This document shows, piece after piece, positions 21,474 to 58,909 of a DNA stretch of 64,000 nucleotides. The DNA is taken from the sequence record NC_041871.1; one strand, given 5' to 3'. Position numbers and translations under genes: made by a program. How positions within the stretch are numbered: position 1 is the first letter of the stretch; each line of letters begins with the position of its first letter. The notes under the pieces are model-generated. The model saw nothing but the letters and a program-made list of their open reading frames with translations, searched no databases and was not told the origin of the DNA. This stretch comes from Escherichia phage Murica.

Positions 21474-22481
21474 TTAGTCACCTTTCAGAGTTGCTTTAAC
21501 AACCAGCTCTGGGCGGGTGTTAACTGCCAGCATAGAAGTTTCAGATTCAATCTTCTCTTCACGCAGGTATGCAGAGTGTTTATACCACATGTACAGTTCC
21601 TGTGCTGGAGTGTTTGCTTCGTTAACATCGTCTGCCGGAGCAAAGTGCAGCTGGAACATCTGATCAATACCCATCGGCAGGATGCGGGCCTCTTTCTTAG
21701 GAATATTGCCAGAGATATCTTCGATAAAGGTGATACCTTTATGCTCAAACACACGGTATACGCTGTCTTGACCGCCAGCACCCAGACGGCGACGCAGAGG
21801 TTCCTGAGCAGAGCCGTAATAGGTGTATGCCAGTTCTACCAGCGGGTGATGGGTAATAGCACTGAAGAACTCCGGTGAGCACAGGGCTACGATGCGATAG
21901 CCAGCTGCGTTATCGCCAGCCTGCAGTGCAATGTGCAGACGAGCTTCTTCCAGAACCTCCATGGGATCCTGATCTGCTTTTGCAGGGTCAATTTCAACAG
22001 ATTTCTGAGACACACCCCACAGAGTGTAGTAATCATACTGACAGGTGGTGTCACCAGGTGCATAGGATTTACCCAGAATAGCCTGGAACAGCGCTTTCTC
22101 ACGCAGTGCTTCATGAGAAACACGGATACGGCGAACAACGCGGGTTACTACGTCCTGAACAGTTTTCGGAGCATCAGGAGTGAAGTAACGACGGAAGTTC
22201 TGAACATCTGCGGCAGTGATGCCTTTGTCCAGAGGGAAGAACGGGATGTTCAGGTTTTTAACCTGAGCACGTTCACTACCAACGTAGTTACGCTCACCAC
22301 CACGACGGCGTGCCGGAATGTCGGTTACAACTTCATCAACACGTTCGATCTGAGCAATTGTTGAGGTGCCGAGACGAGTTTCGAACAGATCCATACCAGT
22401 AATCAGGCGGAATTGACGCGGAACAAGGTCCAGAGTAGCACCTAAATCAACAATGCCAAATTCATCTTTACGAGTAATCAT
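21474..22481 (-). CDS. major capsid protein (lambda gpE-like)
   Basis: 335 aa; size, position after scaffold/decoration genes and a strong downstream terminator; sequence pattern recalled as lambda E-like. Confidence 0.75.
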   Translation of the reverse strand: MITRKDEFGIVDLGATLDLVPRQFRLITGMDLFETRLGTSTIAQIERVDEVVTDIPARRRGGERNYVGSERAQVKNLNIPFFPLDKGITAADVQNFRRYFTPDAPKTVQDVVTRVVRRIRVSHEALREKALFQAILGKSYAPGDTTCQYDYYTLWGVSQKSVEIDPAKADQDPMEVLEEARLHIALQAGDNAAGYRIVALCSPEFFSAITHHPLVELAYTYYGSAQEPLRRRLGAGGQDSVYRVFEHKGITFIEDISGNIPKKEARILPMGIDQMFQLHFAPADDVNEANTPAQELYMWYKHSAYLREEKIESETSMLAVNTRPELVVKATLKGD

Positions 22482-22939: not shown

Positions 22940-23917
22940 TTATTTGTTAGATTCTGCACGTGCACGAGCAAGTGCTTTTGCAACGTTTTCAGCAAGAATT
23001 TCTTCTGCGGATTTTGCAATATCATCCACAACAGGTTCGCCATCATTACCATGTTCAGTGGTGGCAAACTCTTCTTTGGTTTTATGCACCTCTGCTTCCA
23101 GCTCTTCAATTTTTGCTTGAGCTTTCTCCAGCATAGCTACGATAGGTTCGTTAGCTTTTTCCAGCATGAAGTCAACCAGGGTTGCATGATCTTCTTCACC
23201 AACAAAGCTTAAAGCTTGAGCCTTAGTCAGCATTTTAGCTTTTTCAACTTCAACCTGGGCCTTGATGATTTCTTCAGCTTTACTCTGGGTTGCTTTCAGC
23301 TCTTCTACTTGCTTCAGCAGATCCAGATACTCTTTAGTTTTGGTTACGTCCACCGGATTCTCCTCGGTATTTGCGGATTTTGCAATATCATCCACCTCGG
23401 TAGTTTTATCCACCTCAGCAGGTTCCTGTACCGCCTTGATCAGGTTCCCTTCTTTATCGAAGAGATCAGCGGTTACTTGTTCAAAAATCTGTTGTGTTTT
23501 TAACAGGCTGTACTGATCTACCACACTAAGCTGCTTGCCTTCTTTTGCAGCCTTATGAATGGTCACGTTATCACAACGCTCTTCCAGCCATGCAATACAA
23601 GACTCTGCGTCAGCTTGCGCCCATTCCCAATCAGGATGCTCTTTAGCCCAAGCCTCCTCTTCAATCTCAAAACCAAGAATGTGTGCAAGTGCTTTAGCAT
23701 CATCATACCACATATCGAAGAAACGACGCAGGTATTCTTCAAAACTAAGCTCCACAGTAACTTGGCGAAGTGCCTTAACAATATCGTCTGTTAACTGCTC
23801 CGGCTTAAGATCACTCTTCATCAAAAGAGATACAGGTCTGTTGTTAGCGCTATAGCCTTGCGCCTTATGGCACAGGGCGATCCCCTTCTCTTTAATAGTA
23901 ATCGTTTTTTCAGACAT
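22940..23917 (-). CDS. scaffolding protein
   Basis: 325 aa, highly acidic, long predicted coiled coil with E/K/A repeats; between portal and capsid. Confidence 0.6.
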   Translation of the reverse strand: MSEKTITIKEKGIALCHKAQGYSANNRPVSLLMKSDLKPEQLTDDIVKALRQVTVELSFEEYLRRFFDMWYDDAKALAHILGFEIEEEAWAKEHPDWEWAQADAESCIAWLEERCDNVTIHKAAKEGKQLSVVDQYSLLKTQQIFEQVTADLFDKEGNLIKAVQEPAEVDKTTEVDDIAKSANTEENPVDVTKTKEYLDLLKQVEELKATQSKAEEIIKAQVEVEKAKMLTKAQALSFVGEEDHATLVDFMLEKANEPIVAMLEKAQAKIEELEAEVHKTKEEFATTEHGNDGEPVVDDIAKSAEEILAENVAKALARARAESNK

Positions 23918-24348
23918 TATTCATTGCCCTCTTCTACAACACTGATCCCGAAGTTTACGTTGGTAATTTCACCAGTTTCTTCATCAACATTACCTGTTGC
24001 CTGAATGCTTAGGCCACCAACAATGCCAGCCTTCTTAGCTTCCCATAATTCAGGATTATTGTATTTAACTTTAGCAACCCAAGAGCCAGCCTTGATGACC
24101 TGCTCAGTGCCAATTACTACAACATCAAACTCTTCTTGAATCCACGTCTTTTCAATAGTGAAAGCATCTGTAGAGGTCAAGTGGAAAAGGTTTTCAGAAA
24201 CTAGGCCTGCGGCGTATGCTGCGTCCCAGTTATCTTTAGCCTTTTTGATGGTGTCTTTACTCATCCACTCACCGTGAGCATCTTTAGTGTCAGGTTCGTA
24301 GATGATTTCGTAGGAAATCATTTCTTCCTGTGGCATCTTATTCCCCAT
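23917..24348 (-). CDS. head morphogenesis protein (possible XkdF-like/protease-associated)
   Basis: ORF track 23917..24492 trimmed to an internal ATG; overlaps the portal 3' end in the longer form; start uncertain. Confidence 0.35.
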   Translation of the reverse strand: MGNKMPQEEMISYEIIYEPDTKDAHGEWMSKDTIKKAKDNWDAAYAAGLVSENLFHLTSTDAFTIEKTWIQEEFDVVVIGTEQVIKAGSWVAKVKYNNPELWEAKKAGIVGGLSIQATGNVDEETGEITNVNFGISVVEEGNE

Positions 24349-24403
24349 GTGGATTATTTTATCACGCCAAAGGAGGTTTTGCAACCCCCTGTGTTGATAA
24401 TTT

Positions 24404-25960
24404 TTAATTTTCCATGTTGGATATGGAATTATCTCTGGTTGATGACATCTTAGAAGTGCCGTTACCAGTGGATCCTGCAGCCATTCCATCACCAGCTCTA
24501 CTGATGTCCTGGCCCAAGAGCTTCATCAGCTCTTCCTGATCCATGTCCTCGTCAAATCTTTCATCAAACCCACCTACTTCAAGAATCTTATTAATTACTG
24601 CAGGAGTTTTTGGCAAGTAACCTACAGCACCGATCCTCTGGACAAACTTGGAGAAGCTCTCCATGTCCACCTCTTCAATCAGACCAGGTTTCAGTTTAGG
24701 CATATCATCATCTTCAAGGATGATACCATTCAATGCCAGAAGTTGTGGAATAAGATCTTTGTTGAAGGCTTCAGTGATAATATCTATATCACGCTGAACA
24801 AAATGACCATGGATAGACTGTTTTGACTCAGACAGAGAGAAGGATCCAACGTTATCGTTACCGAGGTTAATAAAGCCAGCACCGAAACGGTCAAGAATCG
24901 CCTTCTTACGGGCATCAATCAAATCTTTAGTGGAATACTGCTTACCCATACCGTCAACCCCCTTCAGGGTCATGGAGTAAAGCTCTTTACCAGACTTATC
25001 TCTATCAGACGGAAGTATAAAGAAACTTTGCTCACCACTATGGGCGTTTGCTGCGTCAAGCATAAGGTCTGCAACCATTCTCCCCTCCATTGAATTCGGG
25101 TCAATGCTGGCCTTGTTCAAAATATTGGAAGGAATTTTCAGCTCAAGCACACCACCAAGGTCTTTGGAACAGCCAACAACCTCAAGGTTTTCAATCAGAA
25201 CTTTCTCACGGAAAGATCTGTAGCAACCTATCATAGGTGACACACCTGCAGGGTTAGATTCTGTTCCTGACAGGGTCATGAGCATAAGCTTTTTAGCAGG
25301 GATGAAAATTTCAGGCTCATTAAAGCCTTTTGAAGGCATTGCAGCAAGAGGTCCAGCCCAGCGTGCATTCTGAGTGTTTAGAAATGCATTAGGTGACTGA
25401 TAAATACCTGTCAGTGTTCTACTGTTCTTGTCAAAGACAAACGGCTCTGATCTGGACAAACTGGCCTGAGGTCGGAATGCAATTTTATCAATAAGAAGCA
25501 TCCCGGCGTATTTACCTTCTTTCTCTCTGCGGTATACTTTCTCAAACAGTGAAAAACCATACTCGTTAAAGGTAGCTGCGCTTCTTGCAATATCTCGAAG
25601 AGTTTGTTGGTTTGCCAAATTACGCAAAGAATACTCTATAAGCTCTGCAGCTTTCTTAGAGTCTTCACTTTTAACATTATAAAGGATCTTAAAATCATTG
25701 AATGCTTTCGTGATGAAAACATATTTTGTATCTAAGGCAGTAGCAACTGTGGAATCACATTTCATAGTCTCCACTGTAGCAATCAGCTGAGGCCAACGCA
25801 ATTCCTCAACCATCATAGATTGCGATTCTGCCATAATTTGGGAAAGTGCGCCAGAACCGATCTCACTCATACGAACATTATGAGTTGGTGCGCCTGCGTT
25901 CCCAGATTTATTCACAGTTTTGGCTGTGGCGTTGTGTTTCCTGCGGTTCTTTTTGGACAC
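24404..25960 (-). CDS. portal protein
   Basis: 518-aa ORF immediately downstream of the large terminase; GTG start with GAGGGG RBS. Confidence 0.65.
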   Translation of the reverse strand: MSKKNRRKHNATAKTVNKSGNAGAPTHNVRMSEIGSGALSQIMAESQSMMVEELRWPQLIATVETMKCDSTVATALDTKYVFITKAFNDFKILYNVKSEDSKKAAELIEYSLRNLANQQTLRDIARSAATFNEYGFSLFEKVYRREKEGKYAGMLLIDKIAFRPQASLSRSEPFVFDKNSRTLTGIYQSPNAFLNTQNARWAGPLAAMPSKGFNEPEIFIPAKKLMLMTLSGTESNPAGVSPMIGCYRSFREKVLIENLEVVGCSKDLGGVLELKIPSNILNKASIDPNSMEGRMVADLMLDAANAHSGEQSFFILPSDRDKSGKELYSMTLKGVDGMGKQYSTKDLIDARKKAILDRFGAGFINLGNDNVGSFSLSESKQSIHGHFVQRDIDIITEAFNKDLIPQLLALNGIILEDDDMPKLKPGLIEEVDMESFSKFVQRIGAVGYLPKTPAVINKILEVGGFDERFDEDMDQEELMKLLGQDISRAGDGMAAGSTGNGTSKMSSTRDNSISNMEN

Positions 25961-26062: not shown

Positions 26063-27610
26063 TTAGATAAAACGCTTGAACATAGAAGGTGATGAGATTG
26101 ATGGAATCACACAAGGAAGTGCTACCTCCTCTTTCTCCAGGAAATTAATCGCAGAAGCTACACAGTCTGCCCAGTCGTCTTTTCTGTTAAATGTTGATCT
26201 TTCTCCGTTGAATTTTTCAAGTTCAGTCAGAAATGCTTCCAGAGTATCAGGATGGAAACTGGATTTTACAATCCTCACCATTCCTTGTTGTGCAAGATTG
26301 GCAAAAGGTGAGAACCTTGTCAGTTTAGATTTGTTGGAAGGCATTGGGTCTTCTTCAACCCTGAACCCTTCGGCGAGCAAGGATCTGGATGAGGTTAAGA
26401 ACTCACTCTTACCTGCCTGACCAGGGTCCACAGAGAATACGATTATGCAATCATCACCATCAAACTGCGCCTGTTTCCTGATGATCACATCTCGTTCACC
26501 AGCCTTTTTACAGAACTTGCCTTCCAGACCTGTGGAATACCTCCCGTCATCCACGTTCTCAGGACAATAATCACCGGACAGGTAATAAAAGCCGTCGCTA
26601 TCTTTACTTACCTTAATACTGGCGGTAAAGTCAGGAAATTTATTACCGGAAGTTCTCTCGGTTCCTGCCTTATCCCATGCCCTGCAAGATACTGATCCAA
26701 TGGGTACTCTATCGGCATCACGAAGGAAAGATCTTTGAAAATAGTTTGCACCCTCAGGCTTTGCAAACCAGTTACCATGAAGAAGCTGAGCTTTTTCCAG
26801 TTCCGGCAGACCTTCAAGGAAAGCAAGGTATTCTGGGTTGTCTCTTAAGCAGACAGGATTATCGAATATTGTTGCGCCTATAAACGAGAATGACAACGGT
26901 CTTGGCTTGATCTCTACGCCAAGTCCGTTAACCGTGGTGTATTTCTCTATCAACTCTTCTTTAGAGTCTCCCCAGATAAATTCACCGTCGCGTCGGATAA
27001 AATATCTTTTCTTACCGCATTTCTCCGGATCTGGATACCCTTCATCGTCCAACCACCATCTAACCAGTTTGGCAAGCATGTGTTCTGAATCGGGGTTACA
27101 GCTGATAACCATTCTTGATGGATACTTTGACTGAGATCGCAGACGAGACATCAGATAGTCTATCTGCTCCCATTCGAACTGCGTGCCCTCATCGAAGCAA
27201 ACCATGGTGTACTCAAGCCCCTGATGGTTAAGCTTATCTTGTACATACTCCATATGGCAGTATTTTACAACAGCTCCCTTTTTGCTTCTATCCCACTTAC
27301 CAGTGTTCGGATCAAACCGTGGAAAAATGAACTTATGATCCTTCTCTCTGAACTTTGGCTTAATGTTTTCAGGCAGATCACTGTAAATAGCTACTGCTTT
27401 AGGCCATAGTCCACCCTCACCTTCCAACTGTGGGGTTGTTCTTCGGAACATAACCACAGAGCTGTGGGGGTCATCAATAATTTTAAGTGGCATCAACTGC
27501 AAGAGGAACGACTTGCCAGACCCTGCGGCACCGCCGATTACCAAAATATCTGCATCGTTTTCTAGGATCATCTTCTGCTTTTCAGAACACGGTCCGTAAA
27601 TCTTAGACAT
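26063..27610 (-). CDS. terL: terminase large subunit
   Basis: 515 aa; N-terminal Walker A GGAAGSGKS, ATPase then nuclease-domain organisation; strong RBS. Confidence 0.85.
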   Translation of the reverse strand: MSKIYGPCSEKQKMILENDADILVIGGAAGSGKSFLLQLMPLKIIDDPHSSVVMFRRTTPQLEGEGGLWPKAVAIYSDLPENIKPKFREKDHKFIFPRFDPNTGKWDRSKKGAVVKYCHMEYVQDKLNHQGLEYTMVCFDEGTQFEWEQIDYLMSRLRSQSKYPSRMVISCNPDSEHMLAKLVRWWLDDEGYPDPEKCGKKRYFIRRDGEFIWGDSKEELIEKYTTVNGLGVEIKPRPLSFSFIGATIFDNPVCLRDNPEYLAFLEGLPELEKAQLLHGNWFAKPEGANYFQRSFLRDADRVPIGSVSCRAWDKAGTERTSGNKFPDFTASIKVSKDSDGFYYLSGDYCPENVDDGRYSTGLEGKFCKKAGERDVIIRKQAQFDGDDCIIVFSVDPGQAGKSEFLTSSRSLLAEGFRVEEDPMPSNKSKLTRFSPFANLAQQGMVRIVKSSFHPDTLEAFLTELEKFNGERSTFNRKDDWADCVASAINFLEKEEVALPCVIPSISSPSMFKRFI

Positions 27611-52119: not shown

Positions 52120-52398
52120 ATGAGCTGTGAAAAATCTTTTTTCTTTATTATTTACGGTAAAGATAACTGCCCACATTGTGTAAGAGCAAAAGAATTTGCA
52201 GTCAGTAAAGGTCTGCCTTTTGTATATAAGACACTTGGCGAGGGTTACACAAAAGAAGAGCTTATTGAGAAGTGCAGTCCAATCGTACCCAGAACGTTGC
52301 CGCAGATCTTCTTAGAAAGCAATCTTGAAAGTGTCCATATAGGCGGTGCCGACGATTTCATCTCTTTTGTTAAGAATGGTTTTGGAGAGAAAAAGTGA
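52120..52398 (+). CDS. glutaredoxin-like redoxin
   Basis: 92 aa with CPHC active-site motif after a beta strand. Confidence 0.65.
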   Translation: MSCEKSFFFIIYGKDNCPHCVRAKEFAVSKGLPFVYKTLGEGYTKEELIEKCSPIVPRTLPQIFLESNLESVHIGGADDFISFVKNGFGEKK

Positions 52399-54518
52399 AA
52401 GTTGTAAAACGGGACGGTAGAGAAGAGGTCTATAACGGAATTAAGGTGATCAAGGCGGCAGAGTCCGCCTTACTTGAGTCTGGACATACTGAAGAAGAAG
52501 CTTACCGGATCGCTTGTGCGGTTAATGAAGTTGTTGCTAACAATCTACCAACCGACCAGTGCACAATCTCTGTAAAAAATATCCATATCCTTGTTGAAGA
52601 TGCTCTTATGGATATGGGTTTAAAATGTGCAGCCAGAGAATACATCCAGTATAGACAGACAAGAGATAATAACAGAGAGGCAGGTGGAAAACTGCTTGCA
52701 GATATTAGTGGCTTCTTGGATCGAACTTGTGATGAATTTACAAAAGAAAACGCAAATAAGCCTACCAATCATGTACACACTCATCGTGACCTGCTTGCAG
52801 GCATCCTTAGCAAACACCTTGCATCAACACAGATCCTGCCAGACCGTGTCTCAGAAGAGCACAATAAAGGCTTCATCCATGTGCATGATCTTGACTACTT
52901 GATCAGTCCGTTAACAAACTGTTGTTTGGTAAATTATCCAGATATGTTGGAAAACGGATTCAACATTGGTAACGCCCATGTCAGTAAGCCGAAGTCAATA
53001 GGGGTTGCAACAACAATCCTTAGCCAAATCTCTAGTGCGGTAGCTAGTGCTCAATATGGGGGTCAGACTATGAGCCATATTGATCATTATCTGGCACAGT
53101 ATGCTGAGGCGACTTATGAGAAGAACCTTAAATTTTGCCAGGAACATTGGTTGCCAGATGCTGAGACTGTTGCAATGCAGATGACAGATAAAGACGTATT
53201 TGACAGCATGCAGACTTTACTCTATCAAATCAATACGTTAACTTCTGTCAACGGGCAAACCCCATTCATCACATTAAGTTTAGGTCTGGACACCTCAGTC
53301 TTTGGTAGAATGATTACCAAAAACTACTTGAAAGTCCACAAAATGGGTCTTGGTGAAGAACGTATCACACCTGTGTTCCCTAAAGTGTTGTTCTTCCTAG
53401 AAGAGGGTGTCAACATGAACCCTGGAGATCCTAACTATGATTTGAAACGATTAGCTCTGGAATGCTCTGCAGAGCGGATTTATCCTGACTTTGTTTCTGT
53501 TCCACTAAATCGTAAAGTGACAGGCTCGACAGATGGCAAAGTAACGAGCATGGGTTGCCGGAGTTTTCTTAGCAAATACAGTGACTTGGAAACAGGCGAG
53601 GAGAAATATCTTGGCAGATTTAACTTAGGCGTTGTTAGCCTTAACCTACCAATGATTGCGGCAAAAGCTAAGACGGAAGGTGTTGATTTCTTTGCAGTTC
53701 TTGACGAATACTTGGATCTTGCATACGAGGCTCACCTTGTAAGGGTTAACCGTCTAAAAGGAACAAAGGCAGGGCAGAACCCCATCATGTGGTGTGAAGG
53801 AGCTCTTGCTCGCCTGGATCCTGAAGAGAGTGTTGATAAACTCTTCTATGACGGGTACGCTTCCATCAGTATTGGGTATATTGGTGTGTATGAAACCTGT
53901 CAGATTTTGGGTAGAGAGGGTGACAAGGCTTTAGCTCTTGGAATCCTTCAGCACATGAGAGATGCTTGTGAGCGATACAAGAAGGAAAGTAGACTAGCGT
54001 TTAGCTTGTACGGCACTCCTTCTGAGAGTCTATGCTATAAAGCTGCAACCTGTCTGGATCGTGAATATCCGGAAGTGTTGAAGCACGAGCATGAATATCT
54101 CACCAACAGTTTCCATCAGCCAGTATGGATAAATAGCTCTCCTTTTGATAAGTGGGAGTATGAGGAAGGTTTTGCTATGATCTCCTCTGGTGGCAACATC
54201 GGATACGTAGAGACACCTAACCTGAAAAACAACTTGGATGCTTTAGAGGCTCTTGTTGACTTCGGGTATAAACACATTATGTATTTTGGTATTAACCAAC
54301 CTGTGGATAAATGTCTCAAGTGTGGTTTCTCTGGTGAGTTCAGTGCAACAGCTAAAGGGTTCTGCTGCCCTGCGTGCGGATGCCACGATGAACAATATAT
54401 CTCAGTGATCCGAAGAGTGTCTGGATATCTTTCCAGTCCTAACTCCCGTCCTTACAATAAAGGTAAGCAAGCGGAAGTTATCGAGCGAGTTAAGCACTAC
54501 GGAAGTTGTGGTTGCTGA
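52395..54518 (+). CDS. nrdD: anaerobic ribonucleotide reductase class III
   Basis: N-terminal ATP-cone; C-terminal Cys cluster CLKCGF...CCPACGC and glycyl-radical motif RRVSGYL. Confidence 0.85.
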   Translation: MKVVKRDGREEVYNGIKVIKAAESALLESGHTEEEAYRIACAVNEVVANNLPTDQCTISVKNIHILVEDALMDMGLKCAAREYIQYRQTRDNNREAGGKLLADISGFLDRTCDEFTKENANKPTNHVHTHRDLLAGILSKHLASTQILPDRVSEEHNKGFIHVHDLDYLISPLTNCCLVNYPDMLENGFNIGNAHVSKPKSIGVATTILSQISSAVASAQYGGQTMSHIDHYLAQYAEATYEKNLKFCQEHWLPDAETVAMQMTDKDVFDSMQTLLYQINTLTSVNGQTPFITLSLGLDTSVFGRMITKNYLKVHKMGLGEERITPVFPKVLFFLEEGVNMNPGDPNYDLKRLALECSAERIYPDFVSVPLNRKVTGSTDGKVTSMGCRSFLSKYSDLETGEEKYLGRFNLGVVSLNLPMIAAKAKTEGVDFFAVLDEYLDLAYEAHLVRVNRLKGTKAGQNPIMWCEGALARLDPEESVDKLFYDGYASISIGYIGVYETCQILGREGDKALALGILQHMRDACERYKKESRLAFSLYGTPSESLCYKAATCLDREYPEVLKHEHEYLTNSFHQPVWINSSPFDKWEYEEGFAMISSGGNIGYVETPNLKNNLDALEALVDFGYKHIMYFGINQPVDKCLKCGFSGEFSATAKGFCCPACGCHDEQYISVIRRVSGYLSSPNSRPYNKGKQAEVIERVKHYGSCGC

Positions 54519-55731: not shown

Positions 55732-56520
55732 ATGGGTCGAGCTAAAGAAACAAAACGCATGCGTGATGAAGCTAGAGAGGCTCGCAAATCTGATCGCCTG
55801 CGTAAGGCTGCTGAGAAATTTGCTGACGAAAGAGAGCACACCGCTCCAGCTCTCCGACCAATGAATAAGAAGCAGCAAAAGTATCTTGATTATCTAGGGT
55901 CACGTAAGATTATTATTGTAAACGGTGTGTTTGGATCCGGTAAGACATTCATGGCATCTGCATATGCAGGTGATCTTCTGCGTAAGAACGAGATTGATAA
56001 GATTATTGTTGCACGTCCTTACGTTCAGACAGGAAAGACTTCAGGATTTAAACCTGGAAATGCAATGCAGAAACTGTGGCCCTATCTTCGAAGCATGATG
56101 GACACGATTTGTCGTCGTGTTGGCAAAGGTGCTTTTGCCGCAATGCTGGGAGACGGTCAGAACAGCCGTATCGAGATTTGTGAAGTTGAAAGCATTCGTG
56201 GTCGTAGTTTCGATGAGCGATGCTTTGTCCTGATTGACGAGGCACAGCAAACTAACCCTGAAGAAATGTTGTCAATTATCACAAGGATCTCTGATCAAGC
56301 CACCCTTGTAATTATGGGTGATAATAGCCAACGTGACATCCCTGGTAAATCTGGCCTTGCATGGGTGACGGATTTCTTTACTCGTCATCCAGATCCTGAG
56401 GTTGGAATGATCAGCTTTGATAGTCCAGACGATGTCGTTCGTTCCGGGTTGGGTCGTCAGATCGCACTCAATCTTATTGATGATCGTGCAAATCATATTT
56501 GGACCCCTGTTTCCGAGTAA
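55732..56520 (+). CDS. phoH: PhoH-like ATPase
   Basis: Walker A GVFGSGKTF, Walker B LIDEAQ; AAGGAG RBS. Confidence 0.8.
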   Translation: MGRAKETKRMRDEAREARKSDRLRKAAEKFADEREHTAPALRPMNKKQQKYLDYLGSRKIIIVNGVFGSGKTFMASAYAGDLLRKNEIDKIIVARPYVQTGKTSGFKPGNAMQKLWPYLRSMMDTICRRVGKGAFAAMLGDGQNSRIEICEVESIRGRSFDERCFVLIDEAQQTNPEEMLSIITRISDQATLVIMGDNSQRDIPGKSGLAWVTDFFTRHPDPEVGMISFDSPDDVVRSGLGRQIALNLIDDRANHIWTPVSE

Positions 56521-56525
56521 TACAG

Positions 56526-56546
56526 AAGGGTGGTTATTCCACCCTT
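56526..56546 (+). terminator. hairpin after phoH (no U-tract; weak terminator or RNA processing site)
   Basis: 8-bp stem AAGGGTGG/CCACCCTT with 5-nt loop. Confidence 0.3.
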
Positions 56547-56564
56547 AAATATCTAAAACAGTTG

Positions 56565-56593
56565 TTGACAAATAGGTAAGCTTTAGATATTAT
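56565..56593 (+). promoter_or_regulatory. promoter TTGACA-17-TATTAT
   Basis: consensus -35 and near-consensus -10 upstream of the 56622 gene. Confidence 0.55.
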
Positions 56594-56621
56594 TATCGGA
56601 CAAAACAGAGAGAAGGACAGT

Positions 56622-56933
56622 ATGGCTACAATACAAGAGAAACTGAATAAAATATACTGCCTGTTTGTCTATAACGGCGAGACAATTTTGGCAAATAAGG
56701 GATCCAAGAATGTGTGGACCAAGGACAGCGGTGGTAATATAATTAACTTAGCGTTGCTACGTGAGCGCCGACACAGATTCTTTATCGAGTCTAGAATTAT
56801 TGAAAGCAGCACTTGCTACAGAACAGGCGATAAAGTAATTGTTGACAATGATACGTGGTATGTGGTAGACTGGCAATCATTGAGTTGTGATGCTTCTGAC
56901 AATCGTAAGTATTCCATAGTGATTGCTAAATAA
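56622..56933 (+). CDS. hypothetical protein
   Basis: 103-aa ORF with RBS; contains an internal promoter-like element at 56842-56871. Confidence 0.4.
   Translation: MATIQEKLNKIYCLFVYNGETILANKGSKNVWTKDSGGNIINLALLRERRHRFFIESRIIESSTCYRTGDKVIVDNDTWYVVDWQSLSCDASDNRKYSIVIAK
56842..56871 (+). promoter_or_regulatory. promoter-like TTGACA-18-TGTGG-TAGACT inside the 3' end of the preceding ORF
   Basis: same TTGACA..TGTGG architecture as at 33473 and 38800; about 120 bp upstream of the ClpP-like gene. Confidence 0.35.
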
Positions 56934-56993
56934 AGGTAAATGTGAATCAGGTTTAAATAAATAGCTTTCAACTTCCAATATTAAGGATTTCTC

Positions 56994-58043
56994 ATGAATT
57001 TAACACCTCGCAGAACCATGGTACACGGCATGAAAGAAAAACAGAACGGTTTCGAACCTATGAGTAATAAAATGTTTGGTATGCCGGGCGGTATCATGGA
57101 AACATACAGCTACCCAACACCTGTTGTTGACCACGTTCTTTATATCGACGATTTGGAAGACTTACAAGATCATATGTCTCGCCTGCAGACGATCCGTATG
57201 GCTCAGCCTGAAGAAAGCATTCGAGTGATCATTAACAGCCCTGGTGGTTGCGTGCACATTGCGATGGCTTATCTGCAGGCATTCCGCGAGTCTCAGGCAA
57301 GCGTTGTTGCACATGCTGAAGGAATGTGCTGCTCTGCGGGAACAATCTTATGGCTGGGTTGCAAAGAACGCACTGTGGCTCCGGACACAGAGTTTATGTT
57401 CCACTACTATCAAGGTGGCACTTATGGTAACGGTGTGAACATGAATACTCAGGTCAGCTACTGGAAAAAACGTTTTGAACGCCTGATTGAAAAATACTAC
57501 GGTGGGGTGCTGACAGAAGATGAGATCGCATCCATCACAGCTGGTGGCGAAGTGTGGTTGGACGGAGAAGAGCTGGCAGCACGCACTGGAGCTATTATTC
57601 TGGATGAAGGCAACATACAACGCATCCAGAACGGACAAAAACCGAAAAAGCTTCTGGCAAAAGGTGATGAAGAAGGCGTGTTAGGTGAAGCAGGTCTCCC
57701 GGAGATTCACCAGTGCACATCTTTAGATGAGTTAGTTCATGCTGTTGAATCTGCAAAAGCGGGTGGTTCGAAAGGTGATGTTCACACTGTGTTCCTGAAT
57801 CTGCAGATGGAAAGTGGCGAGACCGTCAGAATTGCCCTGGGTGAGATTACTTCAGAAGATCTGCAGAGATTCTCTGTCGTTGAACTTCAGGATATTCTGT
57901 CTCAATTGAAGACTACTCTGAACGGCGGTGAAGAGGTTAAGGTGAAAGATAAGACTCGCAAGCGTCTGGTGGACAATATTATTAAAACAGCAAAAGAGCT
58001 CAATGAAAAAATCCTGGGTGCAGGAATTGTCGAAGAAGCTTAA
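56994..58043 (+). CDS. ClpP-family serine protease-like protein with C-terminal extension
   Basis: IINSPGG, GMCCSAG (Ser) and MFH (His) motifs in ClpP order within the first 180 aa; about 170 aa of extra charged C-terminal sequence. Confidence 0.6.
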   Translation: MNLTPRRTMVHGMKEKQNGFEPMSNKMFGMPGGIMETYSYPTPVVDHVLYIDDLEDLQDHMSRLQTIRMAQPEESIRVIINSPGGCVHIAMAYLQAFRESQASVVAHAEGMCCSAGTILWLGCKERTVAPDTEFMFHYYQGGTYGNGVNMNTQVSYWKKRFERLIEKYYGGVLTEDEIASITAGGEVWLDGEELAARTGAIILDEGNIQRIQNGQKPKKLLAKGDEEGVLGEAGLPEIHQCTSLDELVHAVESAKAGGSKGDVHTVFLNLQMESGETVRIALGEITSEDLQRFSVVELQDILSQLKTTLNGGEEVKVKDKTRKRLVDNIIKTAKELNEKILGAGIVEEA

Positions 58044-58057
58044 ACATTAATTCTAAA

Positions 58058-58079
58058 GCCCTCTTCGGAGGGCTTTTAT
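58058..58079 (+). terminator. rho-independent terminator
   Basis: AGCCCTC-TTCG-GAGGGCT followed by TTTAT. Confidence 0.6.
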
Positions 58080-58094
58080 GATCTGGAGATTTGC

Positions 58095-58628
58095 ATGACT
58101 TGTGCTAGAAAACCTGATGAACAACGTAACGCCTACGATGAGTATGTGACACCGGAGTGGTGTGCAGAAGGGCTGTATGACCTTATTCAGTTCCCAGAAG
58201 ACTGGACCTACTTAGAGCCTTGCAGGAATAGTGCCTCAGGTGTGTTCTACTCCCGTATGCCGTTAGGATCTGCATGGGGAGAAATACAAGAAGGTGTTGA
58301 CTATCTGAATACAGAATACAACCATGTTGACTGTATTATCACCAACCCACCATACAGCCTGGCTCGTGAGTTTGTAGACAAGGCGTTGAAAGATGCTGAC
58401 GTAGTTATTATGCTTTTGCGTCTTAATTTTCTGGAAAGCAAAGCCAGATTTGAATGGTGGCTTGATAATGCACCTACTACTGTGATCACAATATCTAAGC
58501 GTCCATCATTTCAATCAAACGGCAGAACTGACGGGCAAGCATATGCATATTTTGTGTGGGATAAGAAAAACCGTTTAGACTTGCCGCCGTTTATGTGGTT
58601 GGCACCCCCAGAGGTAGACCTGAAATGA
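58095..58628 (+). CDS. small N6-adenine methyltransferase-like protein (NPPY motif)
   Basis: 177 aa with TNPPY motif IV. Confidence 0.5.
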   Translation: MTCARKPDEQRNAYDEYVTPEWCAEGLYDLIQFPEDWTYLEPCRNSASGVFYSRMPLGSAWGEIQEGVDYLNTEYNHVDCIITNPPYSLAREFVDKALKDADVVIMLLRLNFLESKARFEWWLDNAPTTVITISKRPSFQSNGRTDGQAYAYFVWDKKNRLDLPPFMWLAPPEVDLK

Positions 58629-58909
58629 AAATGAGTGCTAAGGACAAATTACACCATCTAGCGCTAAAACGCCCTGTAACGCTCCCTGACGAACTTAACT
58701 CCATTTATGATGCGATTGTAGGGGAGATACAAAATAAAGCGTTAGCAGGCTTTCTGGGGTGCGGATTTTCGATAAATCTACCCTCGCATCTCTCAGATTA
58801 CTTCCCGCACATTGTTGGAGATTTAAGGGCAGGAGGTCTGCAGGTAGATGTTGTTGGCATCTCCCCAGAGAAAAATAATACGGTTGCCTACTTGACAGTA
58901 ACCTGGTAG
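58625..58909 (+). CDS. hypothetical protein
   Basis: ATG overlapping the preceding stop (ATGA), RBS GAGGTAGACC. Confidence 0.35.
   Translation: MKMSAKDKLHHLALKRPVTLPDELNSIYDAIVGEIQNKALAGFLGCGFSINLPSHLSDYFPHIVGDLRAGGLQVDVVGISPEKNNTVAYLTVTW

What the first reader, a model, noticed from the sequence alone, without database searches (positions are those of the whole stretch)
56994..58043. ClpP-like protease with a long C-terminal extension encoded among early/replication genes
Prohead proteases are expected next to the portal and scaffold genes. This ClpP-fold protein (INSPGG, Ser-containing GMCCSAG and His-containing MFH motifs) is on the opposite strand among nucleotide-metabolism genes, has its own promoter-like element and terminator, and carries about 170 extra residues. 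Inference: it may act on host proteins (takeover or anti-defence) rather than in capsid maturation, or be a relocated maturation protease.
Basis: partly seen in the sequence, partly recalled or inferred. Interest (0 to 1): 0.6.

Follow-up and report, generated by a model that had tools for sequence, protein, structure and literature searches.

The report
Orphan ClpP-like protease of rV5-like phage
This is the already-annotated gene 122 of rV5-like coliphages: a ClpP-fold serine protease with a family-specific extra tail domain, encoded among nucleotide-metabolism genes, that is not the phage's capsid protease and whose real job is still unknown.

Summary
The ORF at 56994-58043 (+, 349 aa) is real. 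The window is about 99% identical to rV5-like Vequintavirus genomes, where this gene is gp122, annotated since 2013 as a ClpP protease subunit.

What was confirmed:
- It has a ClpP-fold core (residues ~44-205). Ser114 and His137 are invariant, and Glu186 sits at the ClpP Asp position.
- It carries a disordered 43-residue leader and a ~110-residue C-terminal alpha/beta domain found only in Vequintavirinae, with no detectable fold relative.
- It is the second gene of a unit already predicted in the rV5 paper: sigma-70 promoter P121, gp121, gp122, terminator t122.
- The head module on the other strand has its own XkdF-type protease between the portal and capsid genes. That protease, not gp122, was found in virions of related phages.

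Homologous "orphan" ClpP-like genes sit in the early or replication regions of T5-like, ICP1, Pakpunavirus, KVP40-like and other large lytic phages. A PhoH-like ATPase gene often lies just upstream.

The residues that form the ClpX/ClpA docking pocket in E. coli ClpP are replaced by polar residues, so the "ATP-dependent" label is unsupported.

Most likely it is a self-contained oligomeric peptidase acting in the infected cytoplasm. Its substrates are unknown, and host takeover or anti-defence roles remain pure speculation. The gene is already known, with moderate-to-low interest.

The parts
56565..56593 (+). Sigma-70-type promoter P121 (TTGACA, 17-nt spacer, TATTAT) that drives the two-gene unit
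   Evidence: Consensus scan gives 11 of 12 matches. It is the same element as P121 in Table S4 of the rV5 paper, with one base different.
56622..56933 (+). gp121: a 103-aa protein of unknown function, co-transcribed upstream of the protease
   Evidence: ORF listed. It matches phrog_5456 (unknown function) at E = 2e-39. Homologues lie upstream of the protease only in Vequintavirus-like loci (L008-L011, L023), so it is not a conserved partner across the wider family.
56994..58043 (+). gp122: ClpP-like serine peptidase, 349 aa (leader 1-43, ClpP core ~44-205, linker ~205-240, C-terminal domain ~241-343)
57123..57608 (+). ClpP-fold catalytic core (residues ~44-205), with Ser114, His137 and Glu186 and an intact handle region
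   Evidence: AlphaFold2 pLDDT is about 90 across the core. Ser and His are conserved in 152 of 152 family representatives; the Asp171 position is D in 102, E in 34 and Q in 11. The alignment to E. coli ClpP is.
57714..58022 (+). C-terminal alpha/beta domain (residues ~241-343), conserved across Vequintavirinae, with nearly invariant F293, E297, L298 and R322
58055..58079 (+). Intrinsic terminator t122 (AAAGCCCUC-UUCG-GAGGGCUUU followed by UAU)
   Evidence: Sequence. Fold energy is -14.7 kcal/mol with z = -3.9. Listed as t122 in Table S4 of the rV5 paper.
55732..56520 (+). PhoH-like P-loop ATPase gene, the conserved upstream neighbour of the protease unit
   Evidence: Matches phrog_170 at E = 7e-75. 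PhoH is upstream and on the same strand in all 41 loci where it lies within the flank.
23917..24492 (-). XkdF-type (Peptidase_S78_2) protease in the canonical prohead-protease slot. It is not part of the feature, but it shows that slot is already occupied.
   Evidence: Pfam PF14550 at E = 1e-17, 64.6 bits against a cut-off of 24. It lies between the portal gene (24404-25960) and the capsid genes. Its orthologues were detected in W70 and CB7 virions.

Best explanation
gp122 is an 'orphan' phage ClpP-fold serine peptidase. It belongs to a broad group of ClpP-like proteins that large lytic phages encode in their early, replication or nucleotide-metabolism regions, alongside a separate, dedicated prohead protease.

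Shown here:
- It keeps the ClpP nucleophile Ser114, the general base His137 and an acidic residue (Glu186) at the Asp position.
- It keeps the Gly-rich strand and long helix of the ClpP handle, so it is expected to assemble into ClpP-like rings.
- It is transcribed with gp121 from a sigma-70-type promoter and ends at an intrinsic terminator.

Inferred:
- It is made at early or middle times by unmodified host RNA polymerase and acts in the cytoplasm of the infected cell, not inside the procapsid.
- It does not dock host ClpX or ClpA in the canonical way, because the hydrophobic pocket that receives the IGF/IGL loops is replaced by polar and charged residues and the N-terminal axial-loop sequence is unrelated.
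- The Vequintavirinae-specific C-terminal domain, seven copies per ring and probably on the apical face where the ClpP C-terminus emerges, supplies substrate or partner recognition.

The substrates (host or phage proteins, or peptides) are unknown.
For: Identity:
- Pfam CLP_protease, E = 2e-12, above the cut-off.
- Full-length match to phrog_5410, E = 5e-155, and to phrog_1827 'ATP-dependent protease', E = 3e-40.
- Only ClpP among PDB sequence hits.
- AlphaFold2 core pLDDT about 90.

Catalytic residues: Ser and His are conserved in 152 of 152 representatives. The Asp position is D, E or Q; the window protein has Glu186.

Not the head protease:
- An XkdF-type protease sits between the portal and capsid genes and is found in W70 and CB7 virions.
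- gp122 is absent from the rV5 virion MS table.
- In the T5-like phage BF23, the prohead protease (ORF164) and the orphan Clp protease (ORF45) are distinct genes.

Transcription unit: promoter P121 and terminator t122. No exact late-promoter motif lies nearby.

Orphan class, by context:
- ICP1: NrdAB-PhoH-ClpP.
- Otagovirus: PhoH-ClpP.
- Pakpunavirus.
- KVP40-like: frd-ClpP-uvsX.
- T5-like: dNMP kinase-ClpP-holin.
- Barbavirus, Ab5 and vB_CoeS_P1.
- 22 of 23 Vequintavirinae-like IMG/VR loci.

Docking pocket: E. coli ClpP residues L48, F49, Y60, Y62, F82, I90, M92, F112, L114 and L189 align with Q65, T66, R77, I79, E99, H107, E109, T127, A129 and I202. The list of pocket residues comes from my own knowledge of ClpP-ADEP and ClpX work, not from a tool.

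Curated ClpP equivalog models are missed by a wide margin (33 bits against a cut-off of 309).
Against: - There is no experimental datum on activity, oligomeric state, timing or substrates for this protein or any orphan homologue in the literature searched.
- The promoter-based timing is inference. The rV5 authors note that sigma-70-like promoters are spread over the whole genome.
- The virion proteomes are shallow (19 proteins for rV5), and proteases often leave or self-digest, so absence is weak evidence.
- The BF23 orphan homologue was detected at low level in purified virions.
- The nearest curated models are head-maturation families.
- The pocket argument rests on a sequence alignment at about 20% identity and a residue list recalled from memory.
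Confidence: 0.55

Rival explanations
1. Accessory morphogenetic protease. gp122 is carried into the procapsid by its C-terminal domain, which would act like the scaffold-like tails of ClpP-scaffold fusion proteases. There it helps the XkdF-type enzyme degrade internal or scaffold proteins, or it is delivered with the DNA.
For: - The best curated and PHROG relatives outside its own group are head-maturation ClpP-related proteases: NF045542 at E = 2e-16, NF045540 at E = 5e-14, phrog_1684 at E = 9e-22.
- ClpP-like genes with long C-terminal extensions do sit between the portal and major capsid genes in other phages: L076 encodes a 527-aa protein with CLP_protease at E = 2.5e-44, and L032 has the order TerL-x-ClpP-portal-MCP.
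- The T5-like orphan Clp protease was detected in purified BF23 virions.
Against: - It is not among the virion proteins found for rV5, W70 or CB7, while the XkdF-type protease is.
- It is encoded 30 kb from the head module, on the other strand, behind a sigma-70-type promoter and without the late motif.
- The C-terminal domain shows no similarity to any other protein in the window or to viral scaffold models.
- There is no nested in-frame start that could give a lambda C/Nu3-type scaffold product.
- The BF23 signal was low and came together with dihydrofolate reductase, so carry-over is possible.
Confidence: 0.2
2. Genuine ATP-dependent Clp subunit, as the annotations say. gp122 rings would dock host ClpX or ClpA, or co-assemble with host ClpP, to redirect or boost host Clp proteolysis during infection.
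For: - It is a Pfam CLP_protease member with the ClpP-type handle motif (HYYQGGTYGNG, compared with HQPLGGYQGQA in E. coli ClpP) and conserved Ser and His.
- Database names say so.
Against: - Docking-pocket residues are replaced by polar or charged ones that are conserved in the phage family.
- The N-terminal axial-loop region is unrelated and predicted disordered.
- The oligomerisation-sensor Arg is replaced by Gly185.
- It scores 33-39 bits against ClpP equivalog or subfamily models whose cut-offs are 228-309 bits.
- A bulky C-terminal domain follows the core.
Confidence: 0.12
3. Functional module with the phage PhoH-like ATPase. The ClpP-like peptidase and the upstream PhoH-like P-loop ATPase would work together, for example as a new ATPase-peptidase pair or in a shared RNA/protein turnover pathway.
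For: PhoH is upstream and on the same strand in 41 of 41 loci where it lies within the fetched flank, with gaps from -79 to 4351 bp. These loci span Vequintavirinae, ICP1, vB_CoeS_P1, Otagovirus, Barbavirus, Acinetobacter phage Ab5 and several IMG/VR groups. The genes are also adjacent in Alteromonas phage V22. The adjacency survives insertions of homing endonucleases.
Against: - The shared order (Nrd...PhoH...ClpP...ligase) may simply be inherited synteny of a replication/nucleotide module among distantly related myoviruses.
- T5-like, KVP40-like, N4-like and Pakpunavirus orphans lack an adjacent PhoH.
- A hairpin and a promoter separate PhoH from the protease unit in this window.
- No known PhoH-family protein is a protease partner (own knowledge).
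Confidence: 0.08

Closest known systems
rV5 gp122 and its orthologues in Vequintavirinae (PHROG 5410; annotated 'ClpP ATP-dependent protease subunit' or 'ClpP-like protease')
   Same: It is essentially the same gene. The DNA is 99% identical to slur16, rV5_ev147, EmilHeitz and others. It has the same 349-aa length, neighbours, promoter P121 and terminator t122. The PHROG match covers the full length.
   Different: Nothing of substance differs. The published annotation carries no function beyond the domain name.
Orphan ClpP-like proteases of other large lytic phages (PHROG 1827: ICP1 gp211, T5/BF23 ORF45, Pakpunavirus, Otagovirus, KVP40-like and Barbavirus proteins)
   Same: They share the ClpP core at 25-36% identity with invariant Ser and His. 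They are located among replication or nucleotide-metabolism genes, often downstream of PhoH. They coexist with a separate prohead protease. Their function is unknown.
   Different: Their C-terminal tails are absent, short and acidic, or unrelated. The 130-residue tail of ICP1 shows no profile similarity (hhalign probability 0.4%). The folded C-terminal domain seen here is restricted to Vequintavirinae.
ClpP-related phage head-maturation proteases (NCBIfam NF045542 Clp_rel_HeadMat; PHROGs 1684, 94, 133 and 2976; protease-scaffold fusions)
   Same: Same fold and Ser-His chemistry. These are the closest curated families by score. Some also carry long C-terminal extensions (L076).
   Different: The score is below the family cut-off (60 bits against 120). 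The gene is not in the head module. The protein was not found in virions of the group. The head module has a different protease.
Bacterial ClpP (MEROPS S14; E. coli ClpP; TIGR00493)
   Same: Same fold, the NSPGG oxyanion motif, Ser and His, the handle-region motif, and an acidic residue at the Asp171 position.
   Different: Sequence identity is about 20%, and it scores 33 bits against a cut-off of 309. The hydrophobic ATPase-docking pocket and the N-terminal loops are not conserved, and the sensor Arg is Gly. It also has an extra leader and C-terminal domain.

Membership tests
ClpP/crotonase-fold Clp protease superfamily (Pfam PF00574 CLP_protease) | Profile match above Pfam's gathering score | tested here: met
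   47.7 bits against a cut-off of 20.2, E = 2e-12, residues 59-168.
ClpP/crotonase-fold Clp protease superfamily (Pfam PF00574 CLP_protease) | Catalytic Ser and His at the ClpP positions, and an acidic third residue | tested here: met
   Ser114 and His137 align with E. coli Ser97 and His122 and are conserved in 152 of 152 relatives. Glu186 aligns with Asp171; the family has D in 102, E in 34 and Q in 11.
ClpP/crotonase-fold Clp protease superfamily (Pfam PF00574 CLP_protease) | Heptameric ring or tetradecameric barrel assembly | not testable with these tools
   Only a monomer model could be made. The handle strand and helix (residues 138-169) are present.
Bacterial ATP-dependent ClpP proper (TIGR00493 / PRK00277 equivalogs) | Score above the curated equivalog cut-off | tested here: not met
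   33.2 bits against 308.6 for TIGR00493, and 38.2 bits against 249 for PRK00277.
Bacterial ATP-dependent ClpP proper (TIGR00493 / PRK00277 equivalogs) | Hydrophobic apical pocket that docks the IGF/IGL loops of ClpX or ClpA | tested here: not met
   Pocket positions L48, F49, Y60, Y62, F82, I90, M92, F112 and L114 align with Q, T, R, I, E, H, E, T and A. The pocket residue list comes from my own knowledge, and the alignment is at low identity.
Bacterial ATP-dependent ClpP proper (TIGR00493 / PRK00277 equivalogs) | ATP-dependent degradation with an AAA+ partner | not testable with these tools
   This needs biochemistry.
ClpP-related phage head-maturation protease (NCBIfam NF045542) | Score above the curated cut-off | tested here: not met
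   60.4 bits against a cut-off of 120, although it is the best NCBIfam hit at E = 2e-16.
ClpP-related phage head-maturation protease (NCBIfam NF045542) | Gene located in the head module next to the portal, scaffold or capsid genes | tested here: not met
   The gene is about 30 kb away on the opposite strand. The slot is occupied by a Peptidase_S78_2 gene.
ClpP-related phage head-maturation protease (NCBIfam NF045542) | Presence in proheads and a requirement for capsid or scaffold processing | tested here: inconclusive
   It is not listed in the rV5, W70 or CB7 virion proteomes, but these cover mature virions at shallow depth. The T5-like orphan homologue was seen in BF23 virions. No genetics is available.
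Orphan phage ClpP-like proteases (PHROG 5410 / 1827) | Profile match | tested here: met
   phrog_5410 at E = 5e-155, full length; phrog_1827 at E = 3e-40.
Orphan phage ClpP-like proteases (PHROG 5410 / 1827) | Encoded in a replication or nucleotide-metabolism region of a genome that also has a separate head protease | tested here: met
   The same holds in ICP1, Otagovirus, KVP40-like and T5-like phages.

The most novel reading that the evidence does not exclude
The orphan ClpP-like peptidase and the PhoH-like ATPase that lies upstream of it in many unrelated large phages form a previously unrecognised functional pair: a phage-encoded energy-dependent degradation or RNA-protein turnover machine used for host takeover. 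In this reading, the Vequintavirinae C-terminal domain is the coupling or substrate-selection element.
Probability: 0.08. Interest if true: 0.75.

Novelty: already known. Interest (0 to 1): 0.33.

Why it matters
Phage proteases outside the capsid module are almost unstudied. Yet this class occurs in roughly a thousand sequenced phages: 969 records matched the core of this protein and 1132 matched the T5-like homologue. These include model and therapeutic phages such as T5-like, rV5-like, ICP1 and the PAK_P-type Pseudomonas phages.

Knowing whether these proteases remodel the host proteome, recycle amino acids, mature non-capsid phage proteins or counter host defences would fill a real gap in understanding host takeover.

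For annotation, the result is practical. The labels 'ATP-dependent' and 'head maturation protease' that pipelines attach to this gene are both unsupported here.

Tried and rejected
- **ICP1 tail.** Profile comparison of the C-terminal domain with the 130-residue tail of ICP1 gp211 gave no similarity.
- **Other window proteins.** An HMM of the C-terminal domain was run against all ORFs of the window, looking for a scaffold or capsid relative or a second copy. Only the gene itself matched.
- **Nested product.** I looked for an in-frame start that would give a lambda C/Nu3-like nested product. None lies in the linker.
- **Defence-system models.** PADLOC gave no hit for gp121 or gp122.
- **Broad locus search.** The search for related loci with a 41-sequence family alignment failed for lack of a conserved stretch. 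A narrower alignment worked.
- **Metagenome contexts.** The look-up of encoding contigs on distant representatives returned only 2-4 kb contigs, which were uninformative.
- **Literature.** Searches for a characterised phage-encoded ClpP, for ICP1 ClpP, for T5 Clp protease, for PhoH plus Clp, and for ClpP-like plus defence found no functional study. No transcriptome of a Vequintavirus was found either.
- **Pseudo-enzyme idea.** Rejected because Ser and His are invariant in 152 of 152 relatives.
Full report
**What the window is.**
- Megablast of 56500-58700 against GenBank phages finds 120 records. 114 of them cover at least 80% of the query, and the best are 99% identical: Escherichia phages slur16, slur12, rV5_ev147, nimi, EmilHeitz and others, all Vequintavirus.
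- The window is therefore part of an rV5-like myovirus genome.
- GC skew changes sign near 34 kb. Structural genes run on the - strand up to about 33 kb, and replication and nucleotide-metabolism genes run on the + strand after it.

**The observation.**
- The ORF is at 56994..58043 on the + strand and encodes 349 aa. It has an ATG start and an AAGGA ribosome-binding site.
- Pfam CLP_protease matches residues 59-168 with E = 2e-12, above the gathering score. A sequence search of the PDB returns 110 distinct sequences, and every one listed is ClpP.
- An AlphaFold2 model built on a 16-sequence alignment gives four regions:
  - a confident ClpP-like core (residues ~44-220, pLDDT about 90);
  - a disordered leader (1-43);
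  - a disordered linker (223-240);
  - a separately folded C-terminal domain (about 241-343, pLDDT 80-90).
- The 'extra' residues are thus about 43 at the N-terminus and about 145 at the C-terminus.

**It is already annotated.**
[quoted passage not shown] Vibrio phage ICP1 ClpP was its best outside hit.
- Table S4 of that paper lists promoter P121 (TTGACAAACAGGTAAGCTTTAGATATTAT) upstream of gene 121, and terminator t122 (GCCCTCTTCGGAGGGCTTTTAT, -14.9 kcal/mol) after gene 122.
- Both elements are present in the window:
  - the promoter at 56565-56593, with 11 of 12 consensus matches;
  - the terminator at 58055-58079, at -14.7 kcal/mol and z = -3.9.
- A second hairpin without a U-run follows the PhoH stop codon at 56526-56546.
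- The unit is therefore promoter, gp121 (56622-56933, 103 aa, PHROG 5456, unknown function), gp122, terminator.
- The late-promoter-like motif proposed for rV5 (TGGTAAAATA) occurs exactly three times in the window, all in the - strand structural arm. No exact copy lies near this unit.

**Not the protease in the capsid slot.**
- The - strand carries, in order:
  - large terminase (26063-27610);
  - portal (24404-25960);
  - a 191-aa Peptidase_S78_2 / XkdF-type protease (23917-24492; Pfam E = 1e-17, 64.6 bits against a cut-off of 24);
  - a PHROG 2970 protein;
  - a decoration protein;
  - a lambda-E-type major capsid protein (21474-22481).
- The canonical position is therefore occupied by a different protease.
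- Orthologues of that XkdF-type protein were found by mass spectrometry in virions of W70 (PMC11370258) and CB7 (PMC7344957). No ClpP-like protein is listed in either.
- The rV5 virion MS table lists 19 proteins and does not include the 38,541-Da gp122.
- These are shallow data sets on mature virions, so absence is only weak evidence.

**The protein family.**
- A word-indexed search found 41 relatives. Almost all are 300-355 aa and come from 120-150 kb contigs or from named Vequintavirinae-type phages such as 4MG, SalP219, Hena1 and pEa_SNUABM_56. The C-terminal domain is conserved in them, with F293, E297, L298 and R322 nearly invariant.
- An exhaustive HMMER search found 3239 representatives at E <= 1e-3. 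Among the 150 best listed, lengths are mostly 190-330 aa (median 230) and the match falls on the ClpP-like core at about 26-57% identity.
- In an alignment of 150 of these with E. coli ClpP, Ser97 and His122 are conserved in all 152 rows. Asp171 is D in 102, E in 34, Q in 11 and T in 4. The window protein has Glu186, and many Vequintavirinae relatives have Gln.
- The ClpP handle motif is retained: HYYQGGTYGNG against HQPLGGYQGQA.
- The positions that, from my own knowledge of ClpP-ADEP and ClpX work, form the hydrophobic IGF-loop docking pocket are not conserved. L48, F49, Y60, Y62, F82, I90, M92, F112, L114 and L189 align with Q65, T66, R77, I79, E99, H107, E109, T127, A129 and I202. Several of these polar residues are the family consensus.
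- The Arg next to the catalytic Asp is Gly185, and the N-terminal region is unrelated to the ClpP axial loops.
- Curated models agree:
  - ClpP equivalogs are missed by a wide margin (33-39 bits against cut-offs of 228-309).
  - The best NCBIfam hits are the phage 'head maturation protease, ClpP-related' model (60 bits against 120) and a ClpP-like prohead protease/capsid fusion model. Both are below their cut-offs.
- PHROG scores give the same order: own family, then PHROG 1827 'ATP-dependent protease', then head-maturation families, then cellular ClpP.

**The C-terminal domain.**
- Modelled alone, with 13 sequences, it folds as helix, beta-hairpin, short helix and two long helices (pLDDT 80-90 over residues 30-105 of the fragment).
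- It resembles no other ORF of the window. It shows no profile similarity to the 130-residue tail of ICP1 gp211.
- There is no in-frame internal start that could give a nested scaffold-like product.
- In other orphan ClpP-like proteins the tail is absent (T5-like, Pakpunavirus, N4-like VBP47), short and acidic (Barbavirus, Ab5, KVP40-like) or unrelated (ICP1). The domain is therefore a lineage-specific addition.

**Genomic context elsewhere.** tblastn of the core finds 969 phage records. The contexts sampled were:

| Phage or group | Context |
|---|---|
| ICP1 | NrdA-NrdB ... PhoH-HNH-small-ClpP ... ligase |
| vB_CoeS_P1 | PhoH-2 small genes-ClpP ... ligase |
| Otagovirus phiPsa315 | PhoH overlapping ClpP ... 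dCMP deaminase ... ligase |
| Pakpunavirus | ClpP ... dCMP deaminase-ligase |
| Barbavirus | PhoH-ClpP-Dam methylase |
| Acinetobacter phage Ab5 | PhoH ... two endonucleases-ClpP |
| Certrevirus phiTE | PhoH-NrdD-NrdG-2 small genes-ClpP-MTase-like |
| KVP40-like | frd-ClpP-uvsX |
| T5-like Sugarlandvirus | dNMP kinase-ClpP-holin-endolysin |
| N4-like VBP47 | first gene of a block of small genes |

- In 78 IMG/VR loci, 22 of 23 Vequintavirinae-like contigs have the order Nrd ... PhoH ... ClpP-MTase-like.
- With a PhoH HMM, PhoH was upstream and on the same strand in all 41 loci where it occurred within the flank, with gaps from -79 to 4351 bp. It was never downstream.
- Alteromonas phage V22 also lists PhoH and Clp protease as consecutive genes.
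- More distant ClpP-like genes (25-31% identity) occur in other settings:
  - true head modules: L032 has TerL-x-ClpP-portal ... HK97-type capsid, and L076 has a Mu-type portal, a 527-aa ClpP fusion and a gpT capsid;
  - between primase and DnaB-type helicase genes (L031).

**What is known about the class.**
- The T5-like orphan is homologous to the window protein (reciprocal tblastn).
- The BF23 paper (PMC10644984) states that the prohead protease (ORF164) is required for capsid processing. It says the function of the Clp protease (ORF45) 'is currently unknown'. That paper detected ORF45 at low intensity in purified virions, next to dihydrofolate reductase.
- No paper in the searchable library reports activity, substrates, timing or mutant phenotypes for any orphan phage ClpP-like protein.
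- A Keio screen with the rV5-like phage LL12 does not mention Clp genes.

**Interpretation.**
- Shown:
  - a real, conserved ClpP-fold protein with an intact Ser/His/acid set and handle;
  - a lineage-specific C-terminal domain;
  - a discrete sigma-70-type transcription unit shared with gp121;
  - a separate head protease in the same genome;
  - membership of a widespread orphan class with conserved PhoH-side synteny.
- Inferred:
  - cytoplasmic action at early or middle times;
  - ring assembly;
  - independence from canonical ClpX/ClpA docking;
  - a recognition role for the C-terminal domain.
- Unknown: the substrates.
- The main rival is an accessory morphogenetic or packaged protease. 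It is kept at about 0.2 because the nearest curated relatives are head-maturation enzymes and because of the BF23 virion signal.
- The 'true ATP-dependent ClpP subunit' reading is kept at about 0.12.
- A functional PhoH-ClpP pair is the most novel reading that the evidence does not exclude (about 0.08). Shared ancestry of the replication module explains the synteny more simply.

**Verdict.**
This is not the capsid-slot protease, and it is evolutionarily nearest to maturation-type ClpP proteases. Nothing supports host takeover or anti-defence.
- The gene is already known and annotated in more than 100 genomes. What remains open is its function, which is a genuine but long-recognised gap. Interest is modest.

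Noticed in passing
window 55732-56520 with 56994-58043; loci L002, L005, L007-L030, L052, L061, L070-L075, L088, L090, L091: A PhoH-like ATPase gene lies upstream and on the same strand as the orphan ClpP-like gene in all 41 loci where it falls within the fetched flank. Gaps range from -79 to 4351 bp, across several unrelated phage groups, and PhoH is never downstream. Homing endonucleases are sometimes inserted between the two genes.
   Followed up: partly
window 58095-58628 (+): The MTase-like gene directly downstream (gp123, PHROG 799) is conserved next to the ClpP-like gene in 22 of 23 Vequintavirinae-like loci. Barbavirus likewise has a Dam methylase directly after its ClpP-like gene. In this window, terminator t122 separates the two genes.
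   Followed up: partly
window 23917-24492 (-): The head-module protease is an XkdF-type Peptidase_S78_2 protein whose ORF overlaps the 3' end of the portal gene. PHROG files it under a family named 'DNA methyltransferase' (phrog_1530), which looks like a misleading family label.
   Followed up: partly
window 56500-58700 compared with GenBank MG0656xx records: Nineteen unannotated GenBank records named 'Campylobacter phage' (C12, C14, A140 and others) are 98.5-99% identical to this E. coli rV5-like region. They are probably mislabelled or contaminant coliphages.
   Followed up: no
window 52395-54518 (+): The anaerobic ribonucleotide reductase gene nrdD is uninterrupted here (707 aa). In phage EmilHeitz the same gene is annotated as two joined pieces, with a homing endonuclease gene inside.
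   Followed up: no
window 26063-27610 (-): The large-terminase ORF matches only positions 147-621 of its PHROG profile, so the N-terminal part must be encoded separately. This fits the terminase introns described for rV5.
   Followed up: no
window 2155, 16309, 19831 (- strand) and 17 near-matches: The proposed rV5 late-promoter motif TGGTAAAATA is over-represented: 20 hits with at most one mismatch, against about 6 expected. All three exact copies lie in the structural arm.
   Followed up: partly
window 56526-56546 (+): A stable hairpin (-13.7 kcal/mol, z = -3.8) lies directly after the PhoH stop codon but has no U-run. It is not in the published rV5 terminator list, and it sits just before promoter P121.
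   Followed up: partly
L003 5848-6459 (Klebsiella phage vB_Kpl_K32PH164C1): In this T5-like genome the orphan ClpP-like gene, flanked by dNMP kinase and holin genes, is auto-annotated 'head maturation protease'. This is probably an annotation error carried over from PHROG category names.
   Followed up: partly
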